Positions 37,382 through 54,563 of a stretch of 64,000 nucleotides of DNA are shown one piece after another (position 1 is the first letter of the stretch; each line of letters begins with the position of its first letter). A model generated the notes under the pieces. That model was not told the DNA's origin. It was given only the letters and a program-made list of their open reading frames with translations, and ran no database searches. Position numbers and translations under genes: made by a program. This DNA comes from Escherichia phage Baret: the sequence record OR896834.1; one strand, given 5' to 3'.

Positions 37382-37387
37382 AAATTT

Positions 37388-37462: not shown

Positions 37463-37478
37463 AATTGAAGGAGATGCT

Positions 37479-37770: not shown

Positions 37771-37799
37771 AAATACATAAATTGAACTGGAGAAGCAAC

Positions 37800-38210: not shown

Positions 38211-38272
38211 ATGGCTTAGGCGAAGGATTGCAAATCCTTTTTATGTGAGTTCAAATCTCATGCGGTCGTCCA
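38197..38272 (+). tRNA. tRNA-Cys (anticodon GCA), CCA encoded
   Basis: Acceptor CGACCGT/GCGGTCG, anticodon arm AAGGA-TTGCAAA-TCCTT, T-arm GTGAG-TTCAAAT-CTCAT. Confidence 0.75.
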
Positions 38273-38293
38273 AATTACTAAAGGAAAGAAGTA

Positions 38294-38812: not shown

Positions 38813-38866
38813 AGCGGCATCTTGTTAAGTTGAGGGTTGCTGGTTCGAATCCAACAGGAACCGCCA
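38789..38866 (+). tRNA. tRNA-Asn (anticodon GUU), CCA encoded
   Basis: Acceptor GGTTCCT/AGGAACC, D-arm GCTC...GAGC, anticodon loop TTGTTAA (stem with mismatches), T-loop TTCGAAT. Confidence 0.6.
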
Positions 38867-38968
38867 AATTCTGTGTAGAGTTAAGTAAACCGGTAGCCAA
38901 CCAGCTATCATTGCTGACATCGAATTCAGCCATAGATACCATTTTCGTTAATAACTGAGGAAACAAGC

Positions 38969-39154
38969 ATGTCCAAGAATGTAATTGCGCAGCTAGAAGT
39001 TCATCGTGATAGCACTATCAACAATATTGAAGTTGAGAAGAAATACATAGAAGAACTTAAACATGATATACTGGTAAGTCTCAACCGTCTTAATGTACGA
39101 AAAGAGTTTCTTAAAGAACTTAATGCAGCTATTGAAAAACTCAAAGCTGAGTAA
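38969..39154 (+). CDS. hypothetical coiled-coil micro-protein (61 aa)
   Basis: Track ORF. Confidence 0.4.
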   Translation: MSKNVIAQLEVHRDSTINNIEVEKKYIEELKHDILVSLNRLNVRKEFLKELNAAIEKLKAE

Positions 39155-39163
39155 ATGAATTAT

Positions 39164-39240
39164 GCGACCGGGGCTGGCTTGGTAATGGTACTCCCCTGTC
39201 ACGGGAGAGAATGTGGGTTCAAATCCCATCGGTCGCGCCA
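39164..39240 (+). tRNA. tRNA-Asp (anticodon GUC), CCA encoded
   Basis: Acceptor GCGACCG/CGGTCGC, anticodon arm CTCCC-CTGTCAC-GGGAG, T-arm GTGGG-TTCAAAT-CCCAT. Confidence 0.8.
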
Positions 39241-39257
39241 AATAAGGTAGGTTAGCT

Positions 39258-39416
39258 ATGGAACGTAGGGAGTTTACTCCAGAAGAGATAGAGCAGATAA
39301 AAGAATCTGCTATGAAAAATGCTAGAATATCTCTGTCACTGGAAGGTATCATTATTAGTGATGTAAACTTTGAAAAAATCAAAGCCATAGCTGATGAACT
39401 GGAAAAAGTAATTTAA
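39258..39416 (+). CDS. VbhA/FicA-antitoxin-like micro-protein (52 aa), not in ORF track
   Basis: AAGGTAGG RBS; sequence NARISLSLEG contains the (S/T)xxxE(G/N) inhibitory motif of Fic antitoxins. Confidence 0.45.
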   Translation: MERREFTPEEIEQIKESAMKNARISLSLEGIIISDVNFEKIKAIADELEKVI

Positions 39417-39417
39417 T

Positions 39418-39493
39418 ACATCCATAGCTCAATGGTTAGAGCTACCGCCTCTTAAGCGGAGGGTTCTAGGTTCAAGTCCTAGTGGGTGTACCA
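39418..39493 (+). tRNA. tRNA-Lys (anticodon CUU), CCA encoded
   Basis: Acceptor ACATCCA/TGGGTGT, D-arm GCTC...GAGC, anticodon loop CTCTTAA, T-arm CTAGG-TTCAAGT-CCTAG. Confidence 0.75.
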
Positions 39494-39519
39494 AATTAAA
39501 CTAGCACGAGAAATATGCT

Positions 39520-39867
39520 ATGATTAATGCTAAAGAAGAATTGTTACTTGCCCTAAAGAATACTAATTCTGAAGTTAAGTGTATTAAGATAGAATTCGGT
39601 TATTATGGGGATAAAGAAGTTTGGGTATTACCCGTAGGTTATACAGAAAAAGATATTGAAGATTTTCTAGATAATCTAGACTTTAAATATGATTCTGGTT
39701 TCGGCGGACAATTGCTTTATGGTAACGTATGGTTTACCGATGGAACTTGGTTAGAACGTGGTGAATATGATGGTTCTGAATGGTGGGAATATAAGACTAC
39801 ACCAGCAATCCCAGAAGAATGCCGAACAATTAATGGTGAAGTAGATCGTACTTTACTATTAAATTAA
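39520..39867 (+). CDS. hypothetical protein (115 aa)
   Basis: Track ORF. Confidence 0.5.
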   Translation: MINAKEELLLALKNTNSEVKCIKIEFGYYGDKEVWVLPVGYTEKDIEDFLDNLDFKYDSGFGGQLLYGNVWFTDGTWLERGEYDGSEWWEYKTTPAIPEECRTINGEVDRTLLLN

Positions 39868-39869
39868 CA

Positions 39870-40250
39870 AAATTTCAGTGCAGAACACGGAGCTAGCAAT
39901 TCGGAAGTGCTGACTCATGATAAGCTGCCTATGTACTTGCGAAGCGGTCGTGTCCAAGACTCGGACTCTTGCACTGAAAACAATCAAACATTCTAGCGTG
40001 GTTGATGGGGAAACCAGCTTGGCGAGGGCAGAAGCTCGTTCGATTCGAGTGAAAGAATGGTTCTCGTAAGTCCGCACAAGTGATAACAGGTTCGAGTCCT
40101 GTCTAGAATGACACTATAAAGTTTACTTATTATGTAGGTTCCGATAGACCGGCGGGTCTATTCTGGCATTTAAGAGAGGTCTCGCAAACTTCTTTGTCAG
40201 CCGTGGGGTTGGTAGCCTCCAGGTGGCCTACACAATAAGTAAATTTATTA
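39870..40250 (+). other. ORF-free structured region with tRNA-like modules
   Basis: T-arm-like hairpins CTCG-TTCGATT-CGAG and ACAGG-TTCGAGT-CCTGT; 7-nt pairing ATTCTAG (39990-96) with CTAGAAT (40103-09) spanning ~120 nt. Confidence 0.3.
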
Positions 40251-40259
40251 AAAATTCAT

Positions 40260-40288
40260 TTGCTATTCTGCTTTATTATCTGTATAAT
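40260..40288 (+). promoter_or_regulatory. sigma70 promoter (TTGCTA-17-TATAAT)
   Basis: aaaaattcatttgctattctgctttattatctgtataat. Confidence 0.65.
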
Positions 40289-40320
40289 ATATTTTATAAA
40301 GTGAAGAGAAGGAAAGCAAA

Positions 40321-40479
40321 ATGAAACACAAGATAGCTCAAGTTTTTATGGCATTATGGTGTATACCAATAGCTATAACAGCATTTAATCTAGATACTTT
40401 TACTATAGAAGAAAAATGTATCGGATTAGTTAGCGGTTTTAGTATGCTGGGCTTATCTTTGCTGTGGTTAAAGAAATAA
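40321..40479 (+). CDS. small hydrophobic membrane protein (52 aa), not in ORF track
   Basis: ATG after GAGAAGGAAAG RBS; two predicted TM segments. Confidence 0.45.
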   Translation: MKHKIAQVFMALWCIPIAITAFNLDTFTIEEKCIGLVSGFSMLGLSLLWLKK

Positions 40480-40483
40480 TATT

Positions 40484-40561
40484 CTCCGTGTAGCTCAGTT
40501 TGGCCAGAGCGTTTCGTTTGGGGCGATAGGGTCGGGGGTTCAAATCCTCCCACGGAGACCA
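40484..40561 (+). tRNA. tRNA-Pro (anticodon UGG), CCA encoded
   Basis: Acceptor CTCCGTG/CACGGAG, D-arm GCTC-AGTTTGGCCA-GAGC, anticodon loop TTTGGGG, T-loop TTCAAAT. Confidence 0.7.
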
Positions 40562-40567
40562 AACAAT

Positions 40568-40645
40568 TGCGGGTTAGATCTCTGGTAGAGATCGCTAGTC
40601 TCATAAGCTAGAAAGAGGTAGGTTCGATTCCTGCACCCGCTTCCA
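40568..40645 (+). tRNA. tRNA-Met (anticodon CAU; could be initiator or Ile2), CCA encoded
   Basis: Acceptor TGCGGGT/ACCCGCT (1:72 mismatch), D-arm GATC...GATC, anticodon arm CTAGT-CTCATAA-GCTAG. Confidence 0.7.
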
Positions 40646-40665
40646 CTTTAATAGAGGATTTCGAA

Positions 40666-40833
40666 ATGAAAGTATTTCGATTAGTAGTAAGTGACAAACG
40701 TTTAGGTAAGAATACCTCAAAATCCTTACTTGCTCATTATGGAAAAGATGAGAAAGAAGTAATGGCGGAGTTTGGGATTAATCACCCTTACTTGAAAGTT
40801 CACTCTATTAAAGAAGTATATAATGGTTACTAA
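40666..40833 (+). CDS. hypothetical micro-protein (55 aa), not in ORF track
   Basis: ATG 8 nt after AGAGGA RBS. Confidence 0.4.
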   Translation: MKVFRLVVSDKRLGKNTSKSLLAHYGKDEKEVMAEFGINHPYLKVHSIKEVYNGY

Positions 40834-40834
40834 T

Positions 40835-40913
40835 AGATCGCTAGCTCAATAGGTTTAGTAGCATCCGACTTTTAATCGGAAGGTTCTGGGTTCGAGTCCC
40901 AGGCGATCTACCA
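40835..40913 (+). tRNA. tRNA-Lys (anticodon UUU), CCA encoded
   Basis: Acceptor AGATCGC/GCGATCT, anticodon arm TCCGA-CTTTTAA-TCGGA, T-arm CTGGG-TTCGAGT-CCCAG. Confidence 0.8.
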
Positions 40914-40931
40914 ATTTCAAGAAAAACGCAG

Positions 40932-40960
40932 TTGCTTGATGCTTAATTTCTTGTTATAAT
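40932..40960 (+). promoter_or_regulatory. sigma70 promoter (TTGCTT-17-TATAAT) for RNA-only unit
   Basis: ttgcttgatgcttaatttcttgttataat. Confidence 0.65.
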
Positions 40961-40972
40961 ATTTATATAAAT

Positions 40973-40994
40973 TGATGAGGATTTCTCCTCATCA
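40973..40994. repeat. perfect 9-bp hairpin at transcript 5' end
   Basis: TGATGAGGA-tttc-TCCTCATCA; the 5' arm is the conserved leader box that elsewhere provides the RBS. Confidence 0.6.
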
Positions 40995-41198
40995 TAGTTC
41001 ACTAAGGTATTAGCTCGACCTAGGACTGGCTGCCAAAAAGCACGATCCCTACGATTCGGGAGGAGTTCTAGATTAGTCCACTAGATTCAGCGGCAACTGA
41101 ATAGTGTATTGGGTTTGCGAGATGACGCGGTTCCTTCCGCTCGAAGCGAAGGTGCTGTAGTTACGCCGAGCTAATAGCCTTAGTAAACTAAAGAATTT

Positions 41199-41277
41199 GG
41201 GGGATGGGTCTGCTAGGGGTGGACACCTCGCTTGCACCGAGGACATCAGAACGATTCGAATTCGTTATCCTCCACCA
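41199..41277 (+). tRNA. tRNA-Ala (anticodon UGC), CCA encoded
   Basis: Acceptor GGGGGAT/ATCCTCC, anticodon arm CCTCG-CTTGCAC-CGAGG, T-arm AACGA-TTCGAAT-TCGTT. Confidence 0.8.
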
Positions 41278-41282
41278 AATAC

Positions 41283-41359
41283 GCGTGATTGATGGAATTG
41301 GCATACATACCGTCCTTAGAAGTCGGGTTTTGAGGGTTCGAATCCCTTGTCACGCACCA
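41283..41359 (+). tRNA. tRNA with UAG anticodon (Leu by anticodon), type I length, CCA encoded
   Basis: Acceptor GCGTGAT/GTCACGC, anticodon loop CTTAGAA, T-arm GAGGG-TTCGAAT-CCCTT; D region GAATTGGCATA shared with tRNA at 36174. Confidence 0.55.
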
Positions 41360-41484
41360 AATTTGATGGTCAGAGTAAATTAAACCTACTATCTCGGTTG
41401 AGCTGTTTTAATGGGTTCGAATCCCAGCGAGGCGTAACTGCCTGGTGTGATAGAGGCATCATTCCACTAACATTGGAAAAACTA

Positions 41485-41715
41485 ATGAAACGAAAATTAA
41501 AAAAGTCTTATATAATTAAGATAAATAAGCTACGAAGTAGGGCAAAAGGATGGCCACTTCGAATATTAATTGCGGATAACCATACTAGATACCATGCGGA
41601 ACAACGTCATTACAAACAGTGGGAGTCATACTGCCGCTCAAAAGCAGGTCGTTTAGATGGATCTTATGAGTTTCTATTTGGTAAGAAGCCTACTAGAGTA
41701 GCTTTAGGTAATTAA
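41485..41715 (+). CDS. hypothetical basic micro-protein (76 aa)
   Basis: Track ORF trimmed to ATG at 41485; upstream part of track ORF overlaps a tRNA-like T-arm. Confidence 0.35.
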   Translation: MKRKLKKSYIIKINKLRSRAKGWPLRILIADNHTRYHAEQRHYKQWESYCRSKAGRLDGSYEFLFGKKPTRVALGN

Positions 41716-41720
41716 TACTT

Positions 41721-41811
41721 GGAAGAGCAAATCGAATTGGCGACGAAAACCGCTTGGAAAGTGGCTGACTGGTAAAACGGCTTGAGAGTTCAAATCTCTC
41801 CTCTTCCGCCA
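41721..41811 (+). tRNA. tRNA-Ser (anticodon GGA), type II, CCA encoded
   Basis: Acceptor GGAAGAG/CTCTTCC, D-stem TCG/CGA, anticodon loop TTGGAAA, long variable arm, T-arm GAGAG-TTCAAAT-CTCTC. Confidence 0.65.
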
Positions 41812-41823
41812 AACAATTTATAT

Positions 41824-41918
41824 GGTAGGTCAATCCAACGGCTGGCGCTGGACTCCGACTTGAAATCGGTTGATCGTAGTGATACGGTGTAAGGGTTCGA
41901 TCCCCTTACCTACCTCCA
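41824..41918 (+). tRNA. tRNA-Ser (anticodon UGA), type II, CCA encoded
   Basis: Acceptor GGTAGGT/ACCTACC, anticodon loop CTTGAAA, long variable arm, T-arm AAGGG-TTCGATC-CCCTT. Confidence 0.7.
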
Positions 41919-41923
41919 AATCT

Positions 41924-42054
41924 TGGAATATGCCGGAATTGGTAGACGGGACTGCCGAATAGGTTTACTAGGAACATCCACTCCTAGAAATATACCTTAA
42001 AAGCGGTTGAGTTAAATGGTCTAACTCATGAAGGTTCAAGCCCTTCTATTCCTT
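41924..42054 (+). other. oversized tRNA-like element (~131 nt; alternative 85-nt fold from 41970)
   Basis: T-arm GAAGG-TTCAAGC-CCTTC; 3' TATTCCT pairs with TGGAATA (41924) or AGGAACA (41970); D-like GCCGGAATTGGTAGACGG; 7-bp internal hairpin TGAGTTA/TAACTCA; no CCA. Confidence 0.3.
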
Positions 42055-42283
42055 GATACATCAATGGCTCAAAGTGTAACGGTGCTATTTGATGCTCTTG
42101 GAAAGACTTTCCCGACATGCGTTCGGGGGTAAGCTTCTGAGGCTAGAATAGAAGAGTTTCTGAGAGCCGCCACAATTGAAAATTCGTACTCGTCTTGAGC
42201 TGCGTGCAATAGGAGATAACTTGATTAGTATTCTAGAACATGCTAATTGAGGATGGTTTCGCTAACCCTGCGAGTTTTCAATT

Positions 42284-42357
42284 GTGGCTATATCATAATT
42301 GGTTAATGATCCTGATTGTGAATCAGGCCTATGTGGATTCGAATTCCACTAGCCACC
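42284..42357 (+). tRNA. tRNA-His (anticodon GUG)
   Basis: Acceptor GTGGCTA/TAGCCAC, D-arm TCAT...ATGA, anticodon arm CCTGA-TTGTGAA-TCAGG, T-arm GTGGA-TTCGAAT-TCCAC. Confidence 0.75.
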
Positions 42358-42386
42358 CCCAAATTAACTTAAATAGGAAATAAAAT

Positions 42387-42581
42387 ATGGCTGATTTCTG
42401 CAAACAATGCTCCATTGATATGTGGGGCAGAGATACTGGTGATCTTTCTGGGCTGATTACAGAAGCCGAAGTCAAAGAAGGTTATGGTGCAGTTGTGGTT
42501 TGTGAAGGATGCGGAGTCATTCGAGTAGATCATGAGGGTAAGCGCCTTGAAGAATCTGAGCCAGTTACCCTATTTCCCTAA
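42387..42581 (+). CDS. zinc-ribbon micro-protein (64 aa)
   Basis: CKQC...CEGC pattern; AGGAAA RBS. Confidence 0.45.
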   Translation: MADFCKQCSIDMWGRDTGDLSGLITEAEVKEGYGAVVVCEGCGVIRVDHEGKRLEESEPVTLFP

Positions 42582-42594
42582 AGTAAAGAATTAT

Positions 42595-42670
42595 TGGGAT
42601 GTAGATCAATTGGCAGATCGTCGGCCTCTGACTCCGAAGGTTCCACGTTCGATCCGTGGCATCCCAGCCA
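42595..42670 (+). tRNA. tRNA-Gln (anticodon CUG), CCA encoded
   Basis: Acceptor TGGGATG/CATCCCA, D-arm GATC...GATC, anticodon loop CTCTGAC, T-arm CCACG-TTCGATC-CGTGG. Confidence 0.75.
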
Positions 42671-42676
42671 AATACT

Positions 42677-42752
42677 TGGAGAGTAGTGTAACGGTTAGCA
42701 CAACGGCCTTTGACTCCGTTAATGGTAGGTTCGATTCCTCCTTCTCCAGCCA
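42677..42752 (+). tRNA. tRNA-Gln (anticodon UUG), CCA encoded
   Basis: Acceptor TGGAGAG/TTCTCCA, anticodon loop CTTTGAC, T-loop TTCGATT. Confidence 0.7.
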
Positions 42753-42759
42753 AATTAAT

Positions 42760-42834
42760 GCGTGATTAGTTCAGTGGCTAGAATAACTGGCTTCCAACCA
42801 GTAGACACGAGTTCGACTCTCGTATCCCGCACCA
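42760..42834 (+). tRNA. tRNA-Gly (anticodon UCC), CCA encoded
   Basis: Acceptor GCGTGAT/ATCCCGC, anticodon arm ACTGG-CTTCCAA-CCAGT, T-arm ACGAG-TTCGACT-CTCGT. Confidence 0.75.
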
Positions 42835-42848
42835 AATAAGGAAACACT

Positions 42849-43100
42849 ATGCACGTTTTTGAGTTTCGTAATAAAAGTACTGATAAGCGAGTTATCATTA
42901 TTGGAGAAACATATCGAGCATATGAACAAACTGATGGCTCTGTTATCTTGAATGATGAGAAAGGAGGTTTTAGCTTTTATCCAGAAGAACCTTATGAAGA
43001 GTTTCGAAAACAATTTAACCTAGACTGGAGAAAGCATTTAAACACTGTTGCTTCATCTGTAGTATTGCCAACTACCAGTACTGTACTCTCTAATGGCTGA
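42849..43100 (+). CDS. hypothetical protein (83 aa)
   Basis: Track ORF, AAGGAAA RBS. Confidence 0.45.
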   Translation: MHVFEFRNKSTDKRVIIIGETYRAYEQTDGSVILNDEKGGFSFYPEEPYEEFRKQFNLDWRKHLNTVASSVVLPTTSTVLSNG

Positions 43101-43257
43101 CAACCTAAAAGTAAAGATTGATAAACAAAAGAAACGTGTAGAAGTAGAGATTGGTGAAGAACGTGTTGCCTTTACTTTTGAATTTCTACAGCAAATGGCA
43201 ATGGCAGTTATGACTGATAAGTCTCCTGTTATTGAAAAAGAAATCCCGTTGAAATAA
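43093..43257 (+). CDS. hypothetical micro-protein (54 aa), not in ORF track
   Basis: ATG overlapping upstream stop (ATGGCTGA). Confidence 0.35.
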   Translation: MADNLKVKIDKQKKRVEVEIGEERVAFTFEFLQQMAMAVMTDKSPVIEKEIPLK

Positions 43258-43267
43258 CGGGATCATC

Positions 43268-43342
43268 GCTCCTAAAGCATTGCTGGCGATGCAGTTGCCT
43301 TGTAAGCATCTGAACCGGGTTCGATTCCTGGTGGGAGCACCA
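43268..43342 (+). tRNA. tRNA-Thr (anticodon UGU), CCA encoded
   Basis: Acceptor GCTCCTA/TGGGAGC, D-arm GCAT...ATGC, anticodon loop CTTGTAA, T-arm CCGGG-TTCGATT-CCTGG. Confidence 0.7.
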
Positions 43343-43357
43343 AATTTAAAAATTCAT

Positions 43358-43386
43358 TTGCCTTCTCTCTTATTTATTGTTATAAT
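43358..43386 (+). promoter_or_regulatory. sigma70 promoter (TTGCCT-17-TATAAT)
   Basis: aaaaattcatttgccttctctcttatttattgttataat. Confidence 0.65.
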
Positions 43387-43416
43387 ATTCATATAAATTA
43401 ATGAGAGGGAAACCAA

Positions 43417-43707
43417 ATGAAACGTTATCTTTCTATTGTATTCCAAACTGGTGGTCAAAGATATACCTATGAATTTCCATCTTCTTGGAAAATCAAAGAA
43501 GGTGATCAAGTAGTAGTGTTAACACCGCGTGAAGGGTATAAAGTAGTAATGGTTAAACAAGTATTCCCAAAAGATCATGAACCAGCTAAAGGCATTCGCT
43601 ATAAGATGATTCATGGTGTGGTCCGTCAAGTACCACGAACTGAGGTAGAAGTAGATAAGACTGGAGAAACTAAATTCCATTATACTTCTTACTTAGATAG
43701 TGTGTGA
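43417..43707 (+). CDS. hypothetical protein (96 aa)
   Basis: Track ORF, GAGAGGG RBS. Confidence 0.5.
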   Translation: MKRYLSIVFQTGGQRYTYEFPSSWKIKEGDQVVVLTPREGYKVVMVKQVFPKDHEPAKGIRYKMIHGVVRQVPRTEVEVDKTGETKFHYTSYLDSV

Positions 43708-43722
43708 TGTAAATATTCTAAT

Positions 43723-43799
43723 ACTTCGGTAGCTTAGCGATCTAAAGCACCCGGCTGATAACCGAGAGATCGGGGGTTTAAATCCCTCCCGGAGTACCA
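43723..43799 (+). tRNA. tRNA-Ile (anticodon GAU), CCA encoded
   Basis: Acceptor ACTTCGG/CCGGAGT, D-arm GCTT...AAGC, anticodon loop CTGATAA, T-arm GGGGG-TTTAAAT-CCCTC. Confidence 0.7.
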
Positions 43800-43895
43800 A
43801 ATTTAGGAATTAAGACTATGCGTCCAGGAAAGTTTAAAAAAGCTAATTGGTCTAAAGAGTATAAAGAATACTTACTTAGTCTAGTAAAACATAAC

Positions 43896-43971
43896 AGTTA
43901 GTTGGCAGAGTGGTTATGCACCTCCTTCATACGGAGCGACTACAGTGGTTCAAATCCACTACTAACTACCA
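43896..43971 (+). tRNA. tRNA with CAU anticodon (third CAU tRNA; Met/fMet/Ile2), CCA encoded
   Basis: Acceptor AGTTAGT/ACTAACT, D-arm GCA...TGC, anticodon loop TTCATAC, T-arm AGTGG-TTCAAAT-CCACT. Confidence 0.7.
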
Positions 43972-47571: not shown

Positions 47572-47607
47572 AGCCCAGCCTGCACTTTTGCGACTGGGCT
47601 ATTTTTA
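47572..47607 (+). terminator. Rho-independent terminator
   Basis: AGCCCAG...CTGGGCT hairpin followed by ATTTTTAT. Confidence 0.7.
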
Positions 47608-47621: not shown

Positions 47622-47650
47622 TTGCTTAGATGCCCAAACTTTTGTATAAT
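47622..47650 (+). promoter_or_regulatory. sigma70 promoter (TTGCTT-17-TATAAT)
   Basis: ttgcttagatgcccaaacttttgtataat. Confidence 0.65.
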
Positions 47651-47681: not shown

Positions 47682-48380
47682 ATGAGGATTATTTCTAAGT
47701 TCGCCGATGTGTATGATTTGCAGAACAGTTTGTTCGACCCAGATCGTGTGTGGGAACGTAAAACTGAGGAGTTACTGGTTAAAGTAACCGATGATGCAGA
47801 AAAGAACATTGTGCATACTCGCCAGGTATTTCGTGATGGTTCGCTATCTTTCCGTGGTGATTTCGAATACTTCGTAAACCCCCTATTTGTTGCAGGTGAA
47901 GTTTACTGGTTACACGAGCTGTACTGCTGGCATCCAGCATTTAGCTTCAAAACGTTTAATCTCGACACTATGTTCGATAAAATGGAAGAGATGGGATTAC
48001 ATGCTCGCTCTTACTTAAGGGATAAGAGTCGTGGAGATGTTCGTGAAACAATGCGTGATCTGCTAGCTGAAGCAAAACCTAAAGCAGAACGTATCTTATC
48101 CGAACTGCGTGTACCGATTGCATATGTGAAAGGTATTAAAAAGAACGATAACGATGATGTTCGTAACTTCGTAATTCAGACTAACATTCGTTTCCATCAG
48201 TCCGGTATTCCGTGGCAGGAAATTGAAAGTAACTTATACCGTTTACACCAAGTTCTCGAACAGTATATCTTCGGTGTACTAGGAACTGGTGAGCCTGATA
48301 TGATTAAAGTATCAGATAAAGACAGGTTAGCAGCGCATGGATTTGATACAAAAACTTCTTTCAGGAATATGGCGCGGTAA
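47682..48380 (+). CDS. hypothetical protein (232 aa)
   Basis: Track ORF, AGAGGA RBS. Confidence 0.55.
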   Translation: MRIISKFADVYDLQNSLFDPDRVWERKTEELLVKVTDDAEKNIVHTRQVFRDGSLSFRGDFEYFVNPLFVAGEVYWLHELYCWHPAFSFKTFNLDTMFDKMEEMGLHARSYLRDKSRGDVRETMRDLLAEAKPKAERILSELRVPIAYVKGIKKNDNDDVRNFVIQTNIRFHQSGIPWQEIESNLYRLHQVLEQYIFGVLGTGEPDMIKVSDKDRLAAHGFDTKTSFRNMAR

Positions 48381-48786
48381 GTGGTATATCCTGGGAGCAG
48401 GTCTAGCGATAGGCATCGGGTTCGGTGCTTATCACTTAATAAATAAAGTGGAGACTTTGTCGGGAGATCTTGCGGTAGCTACTAAAAAGATCTCTTCTCT
48501 AGAGACTTCCCTTAACAAGGTGAAAGCTGAGAGTGAACTTCGCGAGACTCGTATGAATCAGTATTTCACAATGAATAATGTTTCCCAAGCAGATCTAGAT
48601 AAGAAAATTAGTCAGCTTGATAAAGCACTTAGTCGTCAAGACATTATAGCTGCAAAGCCTGGATTGGTAACATTAATTGCTAAAAAGCAGAGTAAGGAGT
48701 TCGAGGAAAGATTAGCATGTTTAACTGGAAACTTGGAATACTGCTCGCAGCCGCAATCACAATCACAGGCTGTGCACAAGAAATAA
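48337..48786 (+). CDS. i-spanin-like protein (N-terminal TM helix + coiled coil)
   Basis: TM WYILGAGLAIGIGFGAY followed by coiled-coil region; next ORF is embedded in its 3' end in another frame. Confidence 0.45.
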   Translation: MDLIQKLLSGIWRGKWYILGAGLAIGIGFGAYHLINKVETLSGDLAVATKKISSLETSLNKVKAESELRETRMNQYFTMNNVSQADLDKKISQLDKALSRQDIIAAKPGLVTLIAKKQSKEFEERLACLTGNLEYCSQPQSQSQAVHKK

Positions 48787-49070
48787 AGACAGAATCTACA
48801 CATGAGCTACCAACAGCTCATGTAGACTGGCCCAAAGGACTTCAACCTTGTAGCTTTGACTTTAAGTTTGAAAAGAAATTAGCTACAAATGGAGAAGATG
48901 GTGTAGTAGTTGTTGTACCATATAAAGATTGGAATATGTTGGCAAAATGCCGTGAGGCAGAATATTCATATATTTCACGACTGACAAGTATGGTTTGCTT
49001 CTATCGCCAAGATTTACAAGAAAAACGTTGCTTAGTTTACTATCCACCCATTACAAATAGGAAAGATTAA
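48717..49070 (+). CDS. o-spanin-like outer-membrane lipoprotein
   Basis: Lipobox LLAAAITITGC; Cys-rich; starts 70 nt inside the upstream ORF (Rz/Rz1-like overlap). Confidence 0.45.
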   Translation: MFNWKLGILLAAAITITGCAQEIKTESTHELPTAHVDWPKGLQPCSFDFKFEKKLATNGEDGVVVVVPYKDWNMLAKCREAEYSYISRLTSMVCFYRQDLQEKRCLVYYPPITNRKD

Positions 49071-49822
49071 TGTCAGTATTAGTCGGTTTACATGGTGAAG
49101 CTGGTTCGGGAAAAGATACCGTTGCAAAATTAATTATCGATTGGTGTAATGACACGTATCCAACGTGTTTACCCCGTCGTTATAGTTTTGCTAAGCCCGT
49201 TTATGAACTTGCATCCGTAATCCTCGGTGTAACTCCAGAGTTTCTAGGAGAGCGCAGGGGAAAAGAGGTTGACCAATGGTTTACGATCACACAATCTCAA
49301 TTGGAGCGAGCCAGAGATGTGTGGGTTAAGTATGGTATCGATAAGTTTGAAGACTTCTCGTACGTTTGGCCTATTTTTGAGGAAAAATATCTTAATCCCC
49401 AACAACTTATCTCAGAGAGTAAAGAAGATGGTCTTTATAGTTTATTTATTTCTCCGAGAAAAATGTTACAGCTCGTAGGAACAGAGCTAGGAAGGCAGCT
49501 GGTGCATGAACGCATTTGGCTCATAATTCTGGAGCAATCCATCGCTAAAGACGACCCAGACGTCGCTGTAATAACAGATGTTAGATTCCCCAATGAAGGA
49601 GAGCTACTCAGAGAAACAAACCATTTAGATATGGATTCTTTGATAGTAAATGTAGTACCAGCTGAGCAGAAGTTCACTATTAAATCAGATCATCCATCTG
49701 AAAGGGGTATTCCTGCAAAATATATTACTCACGAATTAGTTAATAAATTCGATGGTATCAATAACCTTAAACTAGAAGTTTATAACTTCTGTGACTTAGA
49801 GCTAGAACCACTAGTTGGATAA
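49070..49822 (+). CDS. P-loop kinase, probable deoxynucleoside monophosphate kinase
   Basis: Walker A GLHGEAGSGKDT; 250 aa; T5 is known to encode a dNMP kinase. Confidence 0.5.
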   Translation: MSVLVGLHGEAGSGKDTVAKLIIDWCNDTYPTCLPRRYSFAKPVYELASVILGVTPEFLGERRGKEVDQWFTITQSQLERARDVWVKYGIDKFEDFSYVWPIFEEKYLNPQQLISESKEDGLYSLFISPRKMLQLVGTELGRQLVHERIWLIILEQSIAKDDPDVAVITDVRFPNEGELLRETNHLDMDSLIVNVVPAEQKFTIKSDHPSERGIPAKYITHELVNKFDGINNLKLEVYNFCDLELEPLVG

Positions 49823-49834
49823 TCAAGGATCGCT

Positions 49835-50434
49835 ATGACTAATAAAAAAGAAGAAAAGACTAACCTGTTTCACTCCATTCGCCAATCTAATGAGTATACC
49901 TTTTTCTTTGATGAAGAACTCGGTCCGCCGGATGAATACCGTGATTTATCAATGGTACTTATGCAAGCAAATGAGGACGACGAAATTAATCTGATGATTA
50001 ATGGTCCAGGTGGTTATGTTGATACTGCTGCACAGTTATCTAACTTAATTGCTAATTGCCGTGGAACAGTTATAGGACATCTGGTTGGTCCTAGTGCTTC
50101 TGCTTACTGCACAATTTTCCTATCCTGTCATGGATGGGTAGTACATCCACATGCTACGCTAATGGGACACACGTTCTCTGGCGGATTCTGTGAGAAAGGT
50201 CAAGAAATCAAGAAAGCCTATGAATCTTACAACAAGTTCGTAGAAGATATGATGCTAGATGTCTACTATCCGTTCTTCTCAATAGATGAAATAGACGAGA
50301 TGGTAAAAGACAACAAAAATATCTATCTAGATAGCAAGGAAATCCATAAGCGTATTGAAATCTTGGCGAAATATAGATCTGAGCAATATAATAAAATGCA
50401 GTTAACTCAATCTGAGGAGCACAACGAAGAGTAA
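49835..50434 (+). CDS. ClpP-like serine protease family protein
   Basis: INGPGGYV...GPSASAY...VVHPH parallels ClpP INSPGG...AAS...MIHQP. Confidence 0.55.
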   Translation: MTNKKEEKTNLFHSIRQSNEYTFFFDEELGPPDEYRDLSMVLMQANEDDEINLMINGPGGYVDTAAQLSNLIANCRGTVIGHLVGPSASAYCTIFLSCHGWVVHPHATLMGHTFSGGFCEKGQEIKKAYESYNKFVEDMMLDVYYPFFSIDEIDEMVKDNKNIYLDSKEIHKRIEILAKYRSEQYNKMQLTQSEEHNEE

Positions 50435-50444
50435 GTAATTTTAA

Positions 50445-50470
50445 GCCAGGGTTAAGTACCCTGGCTTTTC
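50445..50470 (+). terminator. Rho-independent terminator
   Basis: GCCAGGG-ttaagta-CCCTGGC followed by TTTTCTTTT. Confidence 0.75.
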
Positions 50471-50536
50471 TTTTATCTAAAATTCTTCTTGACAACGACA
50501 TAATTTTATGCTCCAAGTGTAACATTTAAAAACCCA

Positions 50537-50565
50537 TTGAAATTTTCCTCCAAAATTAGTATAAT
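50537..50565 (+). promoter_or_regulatory. sigma70 promoter (TTGAAA-17-TATAAT) for lysis cassette
   Basis: ttgaaattttcctccaaaattagtataat. Confidence 0.6.
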
Positions 50566-50590
50566 GGTACTGGTTAGAGGAGGTTACAAA

Positions 50591-51247
50591 TTGGAAAAGT
50601 TCTTACAATTATTAACAGTACTGCTCCAAGAAGCGAAAGACCCAGCATCGCTTCTTAAACGTCTGCTAACTATCTTAGTTGCTGTCATTATTTTCTTATT
50701 TGTTAGTAATACTAGTGAAGTAATGTCATTCTTAAAGACTTTTTCCACGTCTGCAGTTTTACAGGATTTACAAACCCAGAGGATAGATAACTTCCCTAAT
50801 GTGGCGAGGGAAAAGAGCATGGTTCTCTTCTCTCAGACGGGTGCAGATGCTGTTTTTGTAGTCAAGTATAAACCAGATGCTATCAATGATTATTCCAATA
50901 TTATTGCATGGGAAAGTAATGCGCAATTAGATAGGGCTGACTTGGCCGATAAAGCGGTAAATAAAACGTCTGAATTATACAGACGTCATTTAGAGGGCTT
51001 TAACTACGCATCGGATTTAAGTGTAAGAGTAAATAAATATATGGGGTTAAATATACCTGCGTTTAAAAACGTTACTTTTAATTACATATACACTTGTCCA
51101 TACTTCAATCTAAAAAATATCTATGCTGGGTACATTGGTATTGCTTGGAAAGATAATCCGGTAGATACAGCTGATTCTGAACAGTTCAAGGAATATTTAG
51201 CAAAGCTCTGTTCCCCACAACAGAGATCTTTAGGTAGGTCAATATGA
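50591..51247 (+). CDS. holin-like membrane protein (218 aa, TTG start)
   Basis: TTG 8 nt after AGAGGAGG and downstream of promoter (track ATG at 50537 lies in the -35); single TM LLTILVAVIIFLFV; immediately upstream of endolysin. Confidence 0.5.
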   Translation: MEKFLQLLTVLLQEAKDPASLLKRLLTILVAVIIFLFVSNTSEVMSFLKTFSTSAVLQDLQTQRIDNFPNVAREKSMVLFSQTGADAVFVVKYKPDAINDYSNIIAWESNAQLDRADLADKAVNKTSELYRRHLEGFNYASDLSVRVNKYMGLNIPAFKNVTFNYIYTCPYFNLKNIYAGYIGIAWKDNPVDTADSEQFKEYLAKLCSPQQRSLGRSI

Positions 51248-51657
51248 GTTTTAAATTTGGTAAAAATAGCGAAAAACAATTAGCTACCGTTAAGCCCGAG
51301 CTACAAAAAGTAGCTCGTAGGGCTTTAGAATTATCTCCGTATGATTTCACAATCGTGCAAGGTATTCGTACAGTAGCACAAAGTGCCCAGAACATTGCTA
51401 ATGGTACTTCATTTCTAAAAGATCCTAGTAAAAGCAAACATATTACTGGGGATGCTATTGATTTTGCTCCATATATTAATGGCAAAATTGATTGGAATGA
51501 CTTAGAAGCATTTTGGGCGGTTAAAAAGGCTTTTGAACAAGCTGGTAAAGAACTAGGCATTAAACTTCGTTTTGGTGCTGATTGGAATGCTTCAGGAGAC
51601 TATCACGATGAAATAAAACGTGGTACCTATGATGGCGGTCATGTCGAACTAGTTTAA
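51244..51657 (+). CDS. endolysin, L-alanyl-D-glutamate peptidase (M15-type zinc peptidase)
   Basis: 137 aa; zinc ligand pattern HITGDAIDF...GGHVE; length matches T5 endolysin. Confidence 0.8.
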   Translation: MSFKFGKNSEKQLATVKPELQKVARRALELSPYDFTIVQGIRTVAQSAQNIANGTSFLKDPSKSKHITGDAIDFAPYINGKIDWNDLEAFWAVKKAFEQAGKELGIKLRFGADWNASGDYHDEIKRGTYDGGHVELV

Positions 51658-51667
51658 TTAATAACTG

Positions 51668-51692
51668 AGGCGGGAATATTCCCGCCTTTTTA
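51668..51692 (+). terminator. Rho-independent terminator
   Basis: AGGCGGG-aatatt-CCCGCCT followed by TTTTT. Confidence 0.8.
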
Positions 51693-51735: not shown

Positions 51736-52152
51736 ATGTTTGCAGAGCTATTCACTATGATGCTGCTAGGTATCTGGAAAATAAGTCTAGTAGTATTCGT
51801 TTTAATGATAGTCTTTACTATCATTGCATTAACTACCCGAAATAGCTTATTAATAAAGGTTATTCACGGACTAGAGTATATAATTATGGGTTCATTCGGC
51901 GTTTGTAAATGCAATTGCCATAGAGATACGAAATATTGTTGGTTATGGATGGAACTAGAGAATCCCATATCCATAGCTTTGGCTGTTTCATTCGGTATGA
52001 TTCTTATGGCCCTTACTCTAGCATTAATACCTTTAATGTTAGCTGGGGGAGTTACAGCGTATTTCACCCTTTTCTCCCCGATACTTATGTACTCAATTTA
52101 CCCAATAACTATGTATCTAGTTAGGAAAAGATTTATACATGCAGTAGATTAA
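51736..52152 (+). CDS. polytopic membrane protein (138 aa)
   Basis: Track ORF; 3-4 hydrophobic helices; AGGAGAAAG RBS. Confidence 0.5.
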   Translation: MFAELFTMMLLGIWKISLVVFVLMIVFTIIALTTRNSLLIKVIHGLEYIIMGSFGVCKCNCHRDTKYCWLWMELENPISIALAVSFGMILMALTLALIPLMLAGGVTAYFTLFSPILMYSIYPITMYLVRKRFIHAVD

Positions 52153-52227: not shown

Positions 52228-52659
52228 ATGTCTGATCGTTTCTACACTCAAATGGCGGAACATTTTCGTATACCACATTACGAGCTAAACATTGCACTCC
52301 GTGATCATGACTCTCCTGAGTACAAAAAGCTCGAAAAGAAAGCGGAAAAATCTATTGATACAAAGGTAGGTGCATCTATGTCTAAGGGCAAAAAGTTAAC
52401 TCGTCTTGATCTTAATAAAATTTTAACTGAACTTTTGGGTACTGATATTGAAGGTGCTAAATTACCACTTCTTGTACTAGAGACTATGATTAAAAAGGTC
52501 AAAAATAAAGAATATAAGAAGGTAGAAGTCCCAGAGGGCAGATTAAAGGCTCCTTATCAGGAAGCATTAACCGAGTGTTTGGGTGTAAATCTTGATCTGA
52601 GCACCGCAACCGTAAAAACTATGAAAAACTTCTTAGAGGCCATTAATAACTATGAGTAA
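52228..52659 (+). CDS. hypothetical protein (143 aa)
   Basis: Track ORF, AGAGAGG RBS. Confidence 0.5.
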   Translation: MSDRFYTQMAEHFRIPHYELNIALRDHDSPEYKKLEKKAEKSIDTKVGASMSKGKKLTRLDLNKILTELLGTDIEGAKLPLLVLETMIKKVKNKEYKKVEVPEGRLKAPYQEALTECLGVNLDLSTATVKTMKNFLEAINNYE

Positions 52660-52942
52660 ATTAGTATATCTATTAAAAGGTTCTACTTGCAATCCTTGCA
52701 AAATGTTTGAGCCAGTATTTGATAAAGTAGTCAATGAATATAATTTGGAAGTCCATAAAGAGACTGATAATGCAGAATTAATGCAGAAATTTGGTGTGCG
52801 CCAAGTACCTGTAGTAGTTCTGGCGGATCGCTTACCTAATGGTCGAGTAGAAGCTAATCATATTTTGATTGGACGTCAGCTTCGTAAAGAAACTATGCAC
52901 GAAGCTATTAAAAATTTCCTGGATGATAATCCAGAGGATTAA
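52652..52942 (+). CDS. thioredoxin/glutaredoxin-fold protein (possible RNR reductant)
   Basis: CxxC active site STCNPC near N-terminus, cis-Pro-like VPVVVL; 96 aa. Confidence 0.5.
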   Translation: MSKLVYLLKGSTCNPCKMFEPVFDKVVNEYNLEVHKETDNAELMQKFGVRQVPVVVLADRLPNGRVEANHILIGRQLRKETMHEAIKNFLDDNPED

Positions 52943-53451: not shown

Positions 53452-53697
53452 ATGTTAGCGGAACAAGCAAAACGTTTAGCTAGGATAAATAGAGCCGCGT
53501 CCCTTAAGAGCCGAAAGAAAACGTATAGATGGGTTAAGCGGAGGATAGTATCTTCTGTAGAGATTGGAGGTTCTTTTGTACAGCTTAATCGTGACGAAAT
53601 TAGTTATGAAGCTATAAAAGCCCTCAATAAAGAGGGTTATACTCTAAAACTATCAAATAATTATGGTACAACTATTTTAAATGTTATTTGGGAATAA
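53452..53697 (+). CDS. hypothetical protein (81 aa)
   Basis: Track ORF. Confidence 0.45.
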   Translation: MLAEQAKRLARINRAASLKSRKKTYRWVKRRIVSSVEIGGSFVQLNRDEISYEAIKALNKEGYTLKLSNNYGTTILNVIWE

Positions 53698-53699
53698 TT

Positions 53700-54563
53700 A
53701 TGAAAAAAGAATTTAATGTGCATAAAACACTAGTAGTACCTGATGATGTTAACTTATTCTTTGTTGGTGATATTCATGGATGCAACGATTTGCTAGAAGA
53801 TGCACTACAATTAGCTGGCTATAACGGCAAGAAAGATTGCGTTGTATGCGTGGGAGATTTAATTGATCGAGGCACACAGAATCTGCAAGTTTTAGCCAAA
53901 TTCCTGTATAATCCACGCTTTATCAGTGTCCGTGGTAATCATGACCAATTTATGATTGTGGGAGATTGGGCTAACTGGATGTATAACGGTGGTATGTGGG
54001 CTATGAATGAACTAGATGCAGATACCATTAAAAATATTGCCGAAGACATGGCTGAAAAAATGCCAGTATTCCTAACTGTTAAACATCGTGGCAAGAAGTA
54101 TGGTGTTGTTCATGGTGGTGTACCTTTTACGTACAAAGAATGTGGTAACGAAGTAGAAACCCCAGTGTGGGATAACCTTATTGCACAAGTAGAAGCAGCT
54201 AAGGAAGACCCACATGACCACCCCGGATACCATGTTGAACCATACTTATGGGATCGAGATGTAATCCAAGAAATAGGTTTTCACTTAGCTAAAAATGGTG
54301 AAGAACACTCACATTTCCAGCGTTATGCAGGGTTTAAAGAGAAATACATGGTAGAAGTACCTCCGGTTAATGGAGTAGACTTTGTATTTCATGGGCATAC
54401 CGGAGTACCTTACCCGATTTTATACCAGAACCGTGTTTACCTAGATACTGGCGGTGTTTTCAACGGGCAGTTGACGGTTGCGCAGGTTAACGATGAAACT
54501 GGCAAAATCACCACATTTACCACAGACAAAAATGATAGCTGCGGTGTACAGAGGATCCTTTAA
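53700..54563 (+). CDS. Ser/Thr protein phosphatase (PPP-family metallophosphatase)
   Basis: GDIHG, GDLIDRG, GNHD motifs in order; ATG at 53700. Confidence 0.75.
   Translation: MKKEFNVHKTLVVPDDVNLFFVGDIHGCNDLLEDALQLAGYNGKKDCVVCVGDLIDRGTQNLQVLAKFLYNPRFISVRGNHDQFMIVGDWANWMYNGGMWAMNELDADTIKNIAEDMAEKMPVFLTVKHRGKKYGVVHGGVPFTYKECGNEVETPVWDNLIAQVEAAKEDPHDHPGYHVEPYLWDRDVIQEIGFHLAKNGEEHSHFQRYAGFKEKYMVEVPPVNGVDFVFHGHTGVPYPILYQNRVYLDTGGVFNGQLTVAQVNDETGKITTFTTDKNDSCGVQRIL

What the first reader, a model, noticed from the sequence alone, without database searches (positions are those of the whole stretch)
48337..51657. Candidate two-component spanin pair located upstream of, not within, the holin-endolysin cassette
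ORF 48337-48786 has an N-terminal TM helix and coiled coil; ORF 48717-49070 starts inside it in another frame and encodes a lipobox (ITGC) lipoprotein with a Cys-rich C-terminus, which is the Rz/Rz1-like embedded architecture. The holin-like (TTG start) and 137-aa endolysin genes lie ~1.5 kb downstream, separated by a dNMP kinase and a ClpP-like gene.
Basis: inference. Interest (0 to 1): 0.45.

Follow-up and report, generated by a model that had tools for sequence, protein, structure and literature searches.

The report
Known T5-type overlapping spanin gene pair

Summary
The window is a T5-like phage (Tequintavirus; 96-98% DNA identity to many deposited genomes). ORF 48337-48786 (149 aa) and ORF 48717-49070 (117 aa) exist as described. 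They match the two PHROG "Rz-like spanin" families (phrog_739, 4.6e-38; phrog_812, 1.3e-29). These same families hold phage T4 PseT.3 and PseT.2, which have been shown to complement a lambda Rz/Rz1 lysis defect. They are the homologues of T5 genes T5.045/T5.044. Kongari et al. 2018 already list a "T5 family" of spanins with exactly this 70-bp overlap. The lipobox ITGC (Cys19), the two Cys that are essential in T4 PseT.2 (here C94/C105), the i-spanin membrane helix and a heptad repeat are all present and conserved. Codon-position variation across 28 distinct relatives shows that both frames code for protein. The order spanins, dNMP kinase, ClpP-like gene, terminator, promoter, T-type holin (TTG 50591), endolysin (PDB 2MXZ-like) is conserved across Demerecviridae. 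The spanins therefore lie in a separate transcription unit from holin-endolysin, which is also already annotated in T5. Function rests on homology; no direct test of a T5-family pair was found. Verdict: real, correctly interpreted, already known, low interest.

The parts
47572..47606 (+). Intrinsic terminator-like hairpin plus T-run that ends the preceding transcription unit
   Evidence: Folds at -15.3 kcal/mol, z = -3.7. Lies in a stretch 96% identical to the terminator and promoter annotated in T5 record AY543070.
47622..47650 (+). Putative promoter of the unit that contains the spanin genes (weak -35 TTGCTT, 17-nt spacer, -10 TATAAT)
   Evidence: Read from the sequence. It aligns with the promoter feature of the T5 record. 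The consensus scan did not list it because the -35 matches only 3 of 6. Inferred, not shown.
47682..48380 (+). First gene of the unit: T5.047 homologue, 232 aa, unknown function. Its last 44 nt overlap the i-spanin start. Not part of the spanin itself.
   Evidence: phrog_4243, 2.1e-114, unknown function; no Pfam match; annotated hypothetical in T5.
48337..48786 (+). i-spanin gene (149 aa): short cytoplasmic N-terminus, membrane helix at about residues 17-35, helical periplasmic domain with a heptad repeat at 37-64, conserved AAKPGLV motif, and Cys128/Cys136 near the C-terminus
   Evidence: phrog_739 'Rz-like spanin' 4.6e-38. BLASTP to T4 PseT.3 2e-06, and PseT.3 hits the same PHROG at 1.3e-37. 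Hydropathy, heptad test, AlphaFold secondary structure, alignment. The published table lists the 94%-identical AKFV33 protein with the same start and a coiled coil at 33-76.
48717..49070 (+). o-spanin gene (117 aa; 98 aa after predicted lipoprotein processing). Signal peptide ends in lipobox ITGC (Cys19), Ala at +2, periplasmic Cys45, Cys78, Cys94, Cys105. Its first 70 nt overlap the i-spanin gene in the +2 frame.
   Evidence: phrog_812 'Rz-like spanin' 1.3e-29. BLASTP to T4 PseT.2 3e-08, and PseT.2 hits the same PHROG at 5e-42. G18-C19, W38-P39, C94, Y96, E102 and C105 are invariant from T5-likes to T4. Variation is dominated by third codon positions in its own frame (50 of 76 variable columns). 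GAGGA lies 9 nt upstream of the ATG.
49070..49822 (+). dnk, deoxynucleoside monophosphate kinase. Same unit, not a lysis gene. Start codon overlaps the o-spanin stop (ATGA-type junction: ...TTAATG).
   Evidence: phrog_139 2.3e-51, PF21448 2.3e-11; T5.043 dnk.
49835..50434 (+). ClpP-like protein (199 aa), last gene of the unit; role unknown
   Evidence: phrog_1827 4.5e-90, PF00574 4e-08. All NCBIfam ClpP models score far below their cut-offs.
50443..50475 (+). Intrinsic terminator that separates the spanin-dnk-ClpP unit from holin-endolysin
   Evidence: 10-bp stem with 6 GC pairs plus a T-run; -17.9 kcal/mol, z = -5.0; annotated at the same place in T5 and Providencia phage PR1.
50537..50565 (+). 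Sigma-70-type promoter of the holin-endolysin unit (TTGAAA, 17-nt spacer, TATAAT; 11 of 12)
   Evidence: Best-scoring promoter-like site in the 6-kb scan; a promoter is annotated at the same place in T5.
50591..51247 (+). Holin of the T4 T family (218 aa), TTG start behind GAGGAGG
   Evidence: PF11031 Phage_holin_T 2.8e-112, phrog_860 5.5e-78. The start follows T5.041, 657 nt; RBS context.
51244..51657 (+). Endolysin, M15-type L-alanyl-D-glutamate peptidase (137 aa)
   Evidence: phrog_465 1.1e-54; PDB 2MXZ/8P3A 6.6e-91 over the full length.
51667..51692 (+). Intrinsic terminator after the endolysin gene
   Evidence: 9-bp GC-rich stem plus UUUUU, -16.4 kcal/mol, z = -3.7; annotated in T5.

Best explanation
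This is the two-component spanin of a T5-like phage, orthologous to T5.045/T5.044 and homologous to phage T4 PseT.3/PseT.2.

Inferred mechanism, taken from the lambda and T4 work:
- The 149-aa i-spanin is anchored in the inner membrane by its N-terminal helix and projects a helical, partly coiled-coil domain into the periplasm.
- The 117-aa o-spanin is exported, lipidated on Cys19 and cleaved by signal peptidase II. With Ala rather than Asp at +2, it is sorted to the inner leaflet of the outer membrane.
- The two C-terminal regions bind and form a complex that spans the periplasm through the peptidoglycan mesh. Homotypic disulfide bonds stabilise it: o-spanin C94/C105, which correspond to the essential T4 PseT.2 C87/C98, and probably i-spanin C128/C136.
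- When the T-type holin permeabilises the inner membrane and the M15 endolysin degrades the peptidoglycan, the complexes are freed. They disrupt the outer membrane, most likely by fusing it with the inner membrane, which completes lysis.

Shown here: the genes, their signals, their homology, their conservation, and purifying selection in both frames. Inferred: lipidation, complex formation, the lysis role, and co-transcription with dnk from an upstream promoter separate from the holin-endolysin unit.
For: - Family matches: phrog_739 (4.6e-38) and phrog_812 (1.3e-29), both 'Rz-like spanin'.
- T4 PseT.3 and PseT.2 fall in the same two PHROGs (1.3e-37 and 5e-42). They align pairwise with the window proteins (2e-06 and 3e-08).
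- T4 pseT.3/pseT.2 complement lambda RzamRz1am, and PseT.2 C87 and C98 are each essential (PMC6139136). Those two Cys align with window C94 and C105 and are invariant in alignment A1.
- The pair is orthologous to T5.045/T5.044, whose 2004 annotation already notes similarity to PseT.3/PseT.2.
- Kongari et al. 2018 define a 'T5 family' of overlapped spanins with a 70-bp overlap. Their tables list the near-identical AKFV33 pair with the same start and a coiled coil at residues 33-76.
- In 36 further loci (37 with the window) the lipobox Cys19 and the Cys pattern are kept. The overlap is 70 bp in all Tequintavirus/Epseptimavirus-type loci except three that carry an inserted endonuclease gene.
- Variation falls at third codon positions of the i-frame upstream of the overlap (57 of 83 variable columns). 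It falls at third positions of the o-frame downstream (50 of 76). Diversity is reduced within the overlap (pi 0.046, against 0.077 and 0.096).
- Membrane helix, heptad repeat and helical prediction.
- The gene order is conserved in Sugarlandvirus, Priunavirus and Hongcheonvirus at 34-45% protein identity.
Against: - No experiment on a T5-family spanin pair turned up in the searchable literature, so function rests on homology to T4 at about 29% identity plus topology signals.
- Pfam and NCBIfam have no model that matches either protein.
- The single-sequence AlphaFold model of the o-spanin is unreliable (pLDDT 49).
- Lipoprotein processing was judged from the lipobox motif only; no SignalP or LipoP run was available.
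- The genes are not next to the holin and endolysin genes and appear to be transcribed with a nucleotide-metabolism gene. That is atypical for lambda-like cassettes, though it is also true of T4.
Confidence: 0.93

Rival explanations
1. The 117-aa lipoprotein is a stand-alone outer-membrane lipoprotein with another job. One example would be superinfection exclusion or receptor masking, as for the T5 Llp or phi80/N15 Cor lipoproteins. On this view the upstream membrane protein is unrelated to it.
For: T5-like phages are known to encode a receptor-blocking lipoprotein (established knowledge, not tested here). The pair is transcribed apart from holin-endolysin. No direct lysis experiment on the T5 pair was found.
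Against: The protein is homologous along its whole mature length to T4 PseT.2, including both functionally essential Cys. It is always paired with a PseT.3 homologue, even at 34% identity. Translational coupling by overlap is typical of spanin pairs.
Confidence: 0.03
2. The overlapping ORF 48717-49070 is a chance open frame that is not translated. Only the 149-aa protein and dnk would be real genes, with a 284-nt untranslated gap.
For: Several deposited genomes do not annotate it, for example PP094244, which has nothing between the i-spanin and dnk. Many others call it hypothetical.
Against: Variation in 48787-49070 is concentrated at third positions of this frame (50 of 76 variable columns). 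The frame stays open with lipobox and Cys pattern intact in all 37 sequences examined (the window and 36 loci), down to 34% identity. It matches phrog_812 at 1.3e-29. A GAGGA lies 9 nt upstream of the ATG. Missing o-spanin annotations are a documented gene-caller artefact: 196 of 528 systems.
Confidence: 0.01
3. The 149-aa protein is a generic bitopic coiled-coil membrane protein, for example FtsL-like and interfering with host division, rather than an i-spanin.
For: Weak NCBIfam hit to FtsL_COG5462 (E = 4e-04, 20 bits).
Against: That hit is far below the curated cut-off of 50 bits and covers only the membrane helix plus the start of the coiled coil. The match to phrog_739 is 34 orders of magnitude better. 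The AAKPGLV motif and the overall layout are shared with T4 PseT.3.
Confidence: 0.01

Closest known systems
Phage T5 T5.045/T5.044, the 'T5 family' of overlapped two-component spanins (Kongari et al. 2018, PMC6139136)
   Same: Orthologous: about 94% and 97% amino-acid identity. Same 70-bp overlap, same lipobox ITGC, same six periplasmic Cys, same flanking genes (dnk, ClpP-like, hol, lys) and same terminator and promoter positions.
   Different: T5 carries the HNH endonuclease gene hegF immediately upstream, and its i-spanin is 147 aa with a different cytoplasmic N-terminus. The window lacks hegF; its i-spanin is 149 aa and starts 44 nt inside the upstream gene, like phage AKFV33.
[quoted passage not shown]
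   Same: Same PHROG families (739 and 812). About 29% identity over most of the length. Same topology signals. The AAKPGLV-type motif in the i-spanin is conserved, as are the two essential C-terminal Cys of the o-spanin. In both phages the pair lies away from the holin and endolysin genes and is partnered with a T-family holin.
   Different: The T4 genes are 'separated' (a 4-bp junction overlap only), whereas these overlap by 70 bp. T4 PseT.3 has no periplasmic Cys and PseT.2 has two; here the i-spanin has two and the o-spanin four. The T4 endolysin is a lysozyme, whereas here it is an M15 peptidase.
Lambda Rz/Rz1
   Same: Same functional class and same predicted topology: a type II inner-membrane protein with a coiled coil, plus an outer-membrane lipoprotein encoded in the +1/+2 frame, with periplasmic Cys for disulfide-linked dimers.
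   Different: No detectable sequence similarity (no Pfam Rz or Rz1 match). Lambda Rz1 is fully embedded in Rz, is 40 aa when mature, and is proline-rich and unstructured. Here the o-spanin extends 284 nt past the i-spanin stop, is 98 aa when mature, and is predicted, weakly, to contain strands and a helix. Lambda Rz/Rz1 lie in the S-R-Rz cassette.
Phage P2 LysB/LysC
   Same: The prototype of the 'overlapped' architecture to which this pair belongs.
   Different: No sequence relationship was seen: only a marginal phrog_214 hit for the i-spanin at E = 0.0077. The P2 pair lies within its lysis cassette.

Membership tests
Two-component spanin (functional class; Summer 2007, Kongari 2018) | i-spanin: one N-terminal transmembrane helix (type II, N-in), with the rest periplasmic and predominantly helical with coiled-coil propensity | tested here: met
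   Single hydrophobic segment at residues 17-35. Heptad repeat at 37-64, reached by 6 of 2000 shuffles. Helices predicted over most of residues 2-129 (modest confidence). The published table gives a coiled coil at 33-76 for the 94%-identical AKFV33 protein. Orientation was not tested.
Two-component spanin (functional class; Summer 2007, Kongari 2018) | o-spanin: signal peptidase II signal with a lipobox Cys and no inner-membrane retention signal (Asp at +2) | tested here: met
   MFNWKLGILLAAAITITG|C, with lipobox ITGC, Cys19 and Ala at +2. G18-C19 are invariant in all relatives and in T4. This is motif-level evidence only; no LipoP or SignalP run and no biochemistry.
Two-component spanin (functional class; Summer 2007, Kongari 2018) | The two genes are adjacent in an embedded, overlapped or separated arrangement, i-spanin first, in a phage of a Gram-negative host | tested here: met
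   70-bp overlap with the o-spanin in the +2 frame, which is the 'overlapped' arrangement. The relatives infect Escherichia, Salmonella, Klebsiella and others.
Two-component spanin (functional class; Summer 2007, Kongari 2018) | At least one periplasmic Cys available for homotypic intermolecular disulfide bonds | tested here: met
   i-spanin C128 and C136; o-spanin C45, C78, C94 and C105, conserved. Disulfide formation itself was not tested.
Two-component spanin (functional class; Summer 2007, Kongari 2018) | Required for outer-membrane disruption, or complements a lambda Rz/Rz1 defect | not testable with these tools
   Shown only for the T4 homologues (PMC6139136). No experiment on a T5-family pair was found.
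T4 PseT.3/PseT.2 sequence families (phrog_739 / phrog_812) | Significant full-length profile match of both proteins to the same families as the T4 proteins | tested here: met
   Window proteins: 4.6e-38 and 1.3e-29. T4 proteins: 1.3e-37 and 5e-42. Pairwise BLASTP: 2e-06 and 3e-08.
T4 PseT.3/PseT.2 sequence families (phrog_739 / phrog_812) | The two C-terminal o-spanin cysteines shown to be essential in T4 (C87, C98) | tested here: met
   They align with window C94 and C105 and are invariant in A1.
T5 spanin family (Kongari 2018) | High identity to T5.045/T5.044, a 70-bp overlap, and a position upstream of dnk | tested here: met
Lambda Rz/Rz1 (embedded architecture and sequence family) | o-spanin gene wholly contained within the i-spanin gene | tested here: not met
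   The o-spanin ends at 49070, which is 284 nt beyond the i-spanin stop at 48786.
Lambda Rz/Rz1 (embedded architecture and sequence family) | Sequence similarity to Rz or Rz1 (Pfam models) | tested here: not met
   No Pfam family at E <= 0.01 for either protein.

The most novel reading that the evidence does not exclude
No T5-family spanin has been tested directly, and this family differs from its tested T4 relatives in two ways. It has six periplasmic cysteines instead of two: two in the i-spanin, plus an extra C45/C78 pair in the o-spanin. It also sits in a sigma-70-driven unit with dnk and a ClpP-like gene rather than with the holin. The T5 pair might therefore use a different disulfide topology, with covalent i-spanin dimers and an intramolecular o-spanin staple. 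It might also accumulate from early in infection, held in check only by the peptidoglycan. That would be a variant of known spanin mechanics, not a new kind of system.
Probability: 0.25. Interest if true: 0.2.

Novelty: already known. Interest (0 to 1): 0.07.

Why it matters
It matters little beyond correct annotation. The pair completes the lysis gene set of this T5-like phage: T-type holin, M15 endolysin and two-component spanin. The case also shows that the o-spanin is still missed or mislabelled in many deposited T5-like genomes. PP094244 omits it, and other records call it 'hypothetical', 'endonuclease' or 'i-spanin'. This is the gene-caller bias against overlapping genes that Kongari et al. 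documented. For phage-therapy genomes of this group, a consistent i-/o-spanin annotation would be useful.

Tried and rejected
- Pfam and NCBIfam scans of both spanin proteins gave nothing usable. There were no Pfam hits, and the only NCBIfam hit was a sub-threshold FtsL match that I reject as a membrane-helix and coiled-coil artefact.
- Single-sequence AlphaFold of the o-spanin gave pLDDT 49. That is too poor for a fold search, so none was run. The i-spanin model (pLDDT 66) was used only for secondary structure.
- Literature searches for a direct experiment on T5-family spanins found none. The 2007 Summer et al. paper is not held in the library.
- My first guess at the T4 pseT region was at the wrong coordinates; this was corrected.
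- The consensus scan missed the terminator after the endolysin gene and the promoter upstream of 47682. The terminator was confirmed by folding. The promoter rests only on alignment to the T5 annotation.
- Rejected: that the lipoprotein is an Llp/Cor-type exclusion protein, that the overlapping frame is non-coding, and that the pair is 'embedded'.

Full report
**What the window is.** The 4-kb stretch 48000-52000 matches 455 deposited phage genomes. Of these, 427 cover at least 80% of it. The best hits are Tequintavirus-type phages of Salmonella and E. coli at 96-98% identity. Phage T5 itself carries the same genes in the same order. A cluster of 22 tRNA genes at 34092-43971 fits a T5-like genome.

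**Checking the observation.** Both ORFs are at the stated coordinates.
- ORF 48337-48786 encodes 149 aa. It has one hydrophobic segment, residues 17-35.
- A heptad repeat follows at residues 37-64, in which 7 of 8 a/d positions are L/I/V/M. Only 6 of 2000 shuffles of the periplasmic part do as well.
- A single-sequence AlphaFold model is helical over most of residues 2-129 (pLDDT 66).
- ORF 48717-49070 begins 380 nt into the first ORF in the +2 frame, shares 70 bp with it, and continues 284 nt beyond its stop.
- Its product begins MFNWKLGILLAAAITITGC. That gives a lipobox ITGC with Cys19, followed by Ala. It has four further cysteines at 45, 78, 94 and 105.
- A GAGGA lies 9 nt upstream of its ATG.
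- Downstream lie a dNMP kinase, a ClpP-like protein, a T-family holin and a 137-aa M15 endolysin.
- The endolysin is almost identical to the solved T5 L-alanyl-D-glutamate peptidase (2MXZ, E = 6.6e-91).

First, in the field's vocabulary the arrangement is 'overlapped', not 'embedded' (definitions in PMC6139136). Second, the mechanical holin ORF start, TTG 50537, is actually the -35 hexamer of a strong promoter-like site (TTGAAA, 17-nt spacer, TATAAT). The real start is TTG 50591 behind GAGGAGG, giving 218 aa as in T5.041.

**What it is.** The two proteins match phrog_739 (4.6e-38) and phrog_812 (1.3e-29), both labelled 'Rz-like spanin'. I fetched the phage T4 pseT region. T4 PseT.3 and PseT.2 fall in the same two PHROGs (1.3e-37 and 5e-42). 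They also align pairwise with the window proteins (E = 2e-06 and 3e-08, about 29% identity).

The T5 record of 2004 already notes this similarity for T5.045 and T5.044. Kongari et al. 2018 (PMC6139136) define a 'T5 family' of spanins: EPS7, Stitch, SPC35, AKFV33, FFH1, DT57C and T5 are overlapped, and phiR201 and Shivani are separated. They state that the T5 genes overlap by 70 bp, which is exactly the overlap here. Their supplementary tables list the AKFV33 i-spanin, which is 94% identical to the window protein. It has the same MDLIQKLL start, a 70-bp overlap and a predicted coiled coil at residues 33-76. Many deposited genomes annotate the pair as 'Rz-like spanin' or as i-/o-spanin.

**Is the overlapping frame really coding?** I extracted both genes from 36 further loci, making 37 sequences with the window. 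These were T5-like genomes from the viral collection plus Klebsiella, Providencia and Pectobacterium relatives.
- All keep both frames open. All keep the lipobox Cys at position 19, and the i-spanin Cys pair is kept in every sequence.
- The o-spanin C94/C105 pair (window numbering) is also kept in every sequence. C45/C78 are absent in the Providencia phage.
- The T5-type loci all have the 70-bp overlap, except three with a 666-bp gap.
- That gap holds a 232-aa ORF with T5orf172/MUG113 and zinc-finger domains. This reproduces the homing-endonuclease insertion that Kongari et al. describe for the 'separated' members.
- Among 28 distinct T5-type sequences, variable columns upstream of the overlap fall mostly on third positions of the i-frame (57 of 83).
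- Downstream of the overlap they fall mostly on third positions of the o-frame (50 of 76).
- Inside the overlap, diversity drops (pi 0.046, against 0.077 and 0.096), with only a weak excess at i-frame third positions (9 of 17 variable columns).

This is the signature of two protein-coding frames that hand over at the overlap. It disposes of the 'not translated' alternative as far as sequence can.

**Conserved functional residues.** Alignment A1 covers the window, T5, a separated member, three distant Demerecviridae and T4. It has invariant G18-C19 (lipobox), W38-P39, D71, C94, Y96, E102 and C105. Kongari et al. showed that T4 pseT.3/pseT.2 complement the lambda RzamRz1am lysis defect. They also showed that PseT.2 C87S and C98S are each lysis-defective. 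Those residues align with window C94 and C105.

The i-spanin alignment A2 shows a conserved AAKPGLV-type motif shared with T4. It also shows a C-terminal Cys pair (C128/C136) that all Demerecviridae members have and T4 lacks. With 2 + 4 periplasmic cysteines, the family sits near the upper end of the published distribution.

**How it most likely works.** The following is inferred from the lambda and T4 paradigm, not shown here.
1. The i-spanin is tethered in the inner membrane and the lipidated o-spanin in the outer membrane.
2. Their periplasmic C-terminal regions associate into disulfide-stabilised complexes that are threaded through the peptidoglycan.
3. The T-family holin triggers and the M15 endolysin removes the peptidoglycan.
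4. The freed complexes then destroy the outer membrane, probably by membrane fusion.

**Genomic position.** The spanin genes are indeed not adjacent to the holin and endolysin genes.
- A strong hairpin terminator at 50443-50475 (z = -5.0) follows the ClpP-like gene.
- The best promoter-like site of the region (50537-50565) precedes the holin.
- Another terminator follows the endolysin.
- Upstream, a terminator at 47572-47606 and a stretch 96% identical to a promoter annotated in T5 precede gene 47682-48380.

So the spanins appear to be co-transcribed with a gene of unknown function, dnk and the ClpP-like gene, separately from holin-endolysin. The same features are annotated in T5. The gene order is conserved in Sugarlandvirus, Priunavirus and Hongcheonvirus, where the spanins are only 34-45% identical. 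Spanin genes unlinked from the other lysis genes are also the rule in T4. The position is therefore real, conserved and already on record.

**Membership.**
- The pair meets every sequence-testable criterion of a two-component spanin of the overlapped class.
- It meets those of the T4 PseT.3/PseT.2 sequence families, and those of the T5 family.
- It does not meet the criteria of the lambda Rz/Rz1 embedded class or sequence family (no Pfam match).
- The functional criterion, complementation or a lysis defect, cannot be tested here. As far as I could find, it has not been tested for any T5-family pair.

**Verdict.** The feature is already known, so interest is low. What remains open is modest: direct experimental confirmation for the T5 family, the roles of the four extra cysteines, and the timing of expression from the separate transcription unit.

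Noticed in passing
window 34092-43971 (+): Cluster of 22 tRNA genes covering most amino acids, including two tRNA-Met, two tRNA-Gln, two tRNA-Lys and two tRNA-Leu. This is typical of T5-like genomes.
   Followed up: no
window 49251/49252, inside dnk: The sequence GAG A|GCGC AGG matches the T5 nick-site consensus. It lies at the same offset in dnk as the 'major DNA single-chain interruption' annotated in T5 record AY543070. The surrounding 36 nt are 97% identical.
   Followed up: partly
window 48337-48380, compared with L003 2963-3460: T5 has the HNH homing endonuclease gene hegF between the T5.047 homologue and the i-spanin, and the window lacks it. Genomes fall into two i-spanin forms with different cytoplasmic N-termini: 149 aa, which in the window and its closest relatives starts 44 nt inside the upstream gene, and 147 aa, which in T5 follows hegF. 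The endonuclease insertion site therefore coincides with the i-spanin start.
   Followed up: partly
L015 2815-3513 (also L016, L017): A 232-aa ORF with T5orf172/MUG113 (GIY-YIG-type), CapR and treble-clef zinc-finger domains is inserted between the i- and o-spanin genes. It replaces the last residues of the i-spanin and the first residues of the o-spanin signal peptide. This converts the overlapped pair into a separated one.
   Followed up: yes
window 49835-50434 (+): The ClpP-like protein scores far below the curated cut-offs of every NCBIfam ClpP model. It is closest to ClpP-related head maturation proteases. Yet it sits in the early region between dnk and the holin, far from the structural genes, so its role is unexplained.
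   Followed up: no
window 51736-52152 (+): A conserved 138-aa hydrophobic protein (the T5.039 homologue, annotated there with four transmembrane domains; phrog_5944, unknown function) lies immediately after the endolysin terminator. A lysis-related role, such as holin regulation, was not examined.
   Followed up: no
window 50537-50590: The longest mechanical ORF for the holin begins at TTG 50537, which is the -35 hexamer of the promoter. Deposited genomes disagree on the holin start: 684 nt in PP094244 against 657 nt in T5 and Stokescottia.
   Followed up: yes
public records: PP094244, NC_031022, NC_041913 and others: The o-spanin is unannotated, or labelled 'hypothetical protein', 'endonuclease' or 'i-spanin', in many deposited T5-like genomes. 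In NC_041913 the i-spanin is called 'outer membrane lipoprotein i-spanin'.
   Followed up: partly
window 52652-52942 (+) and 53688-54563 (+): A thioredoxin-like protein with a CNPC motif, and a metallophosphoesterase-like protein (GDIHG, GDLIDRG and GNHD motifs), lie downstream of the lysis genes.
   Followed up: no
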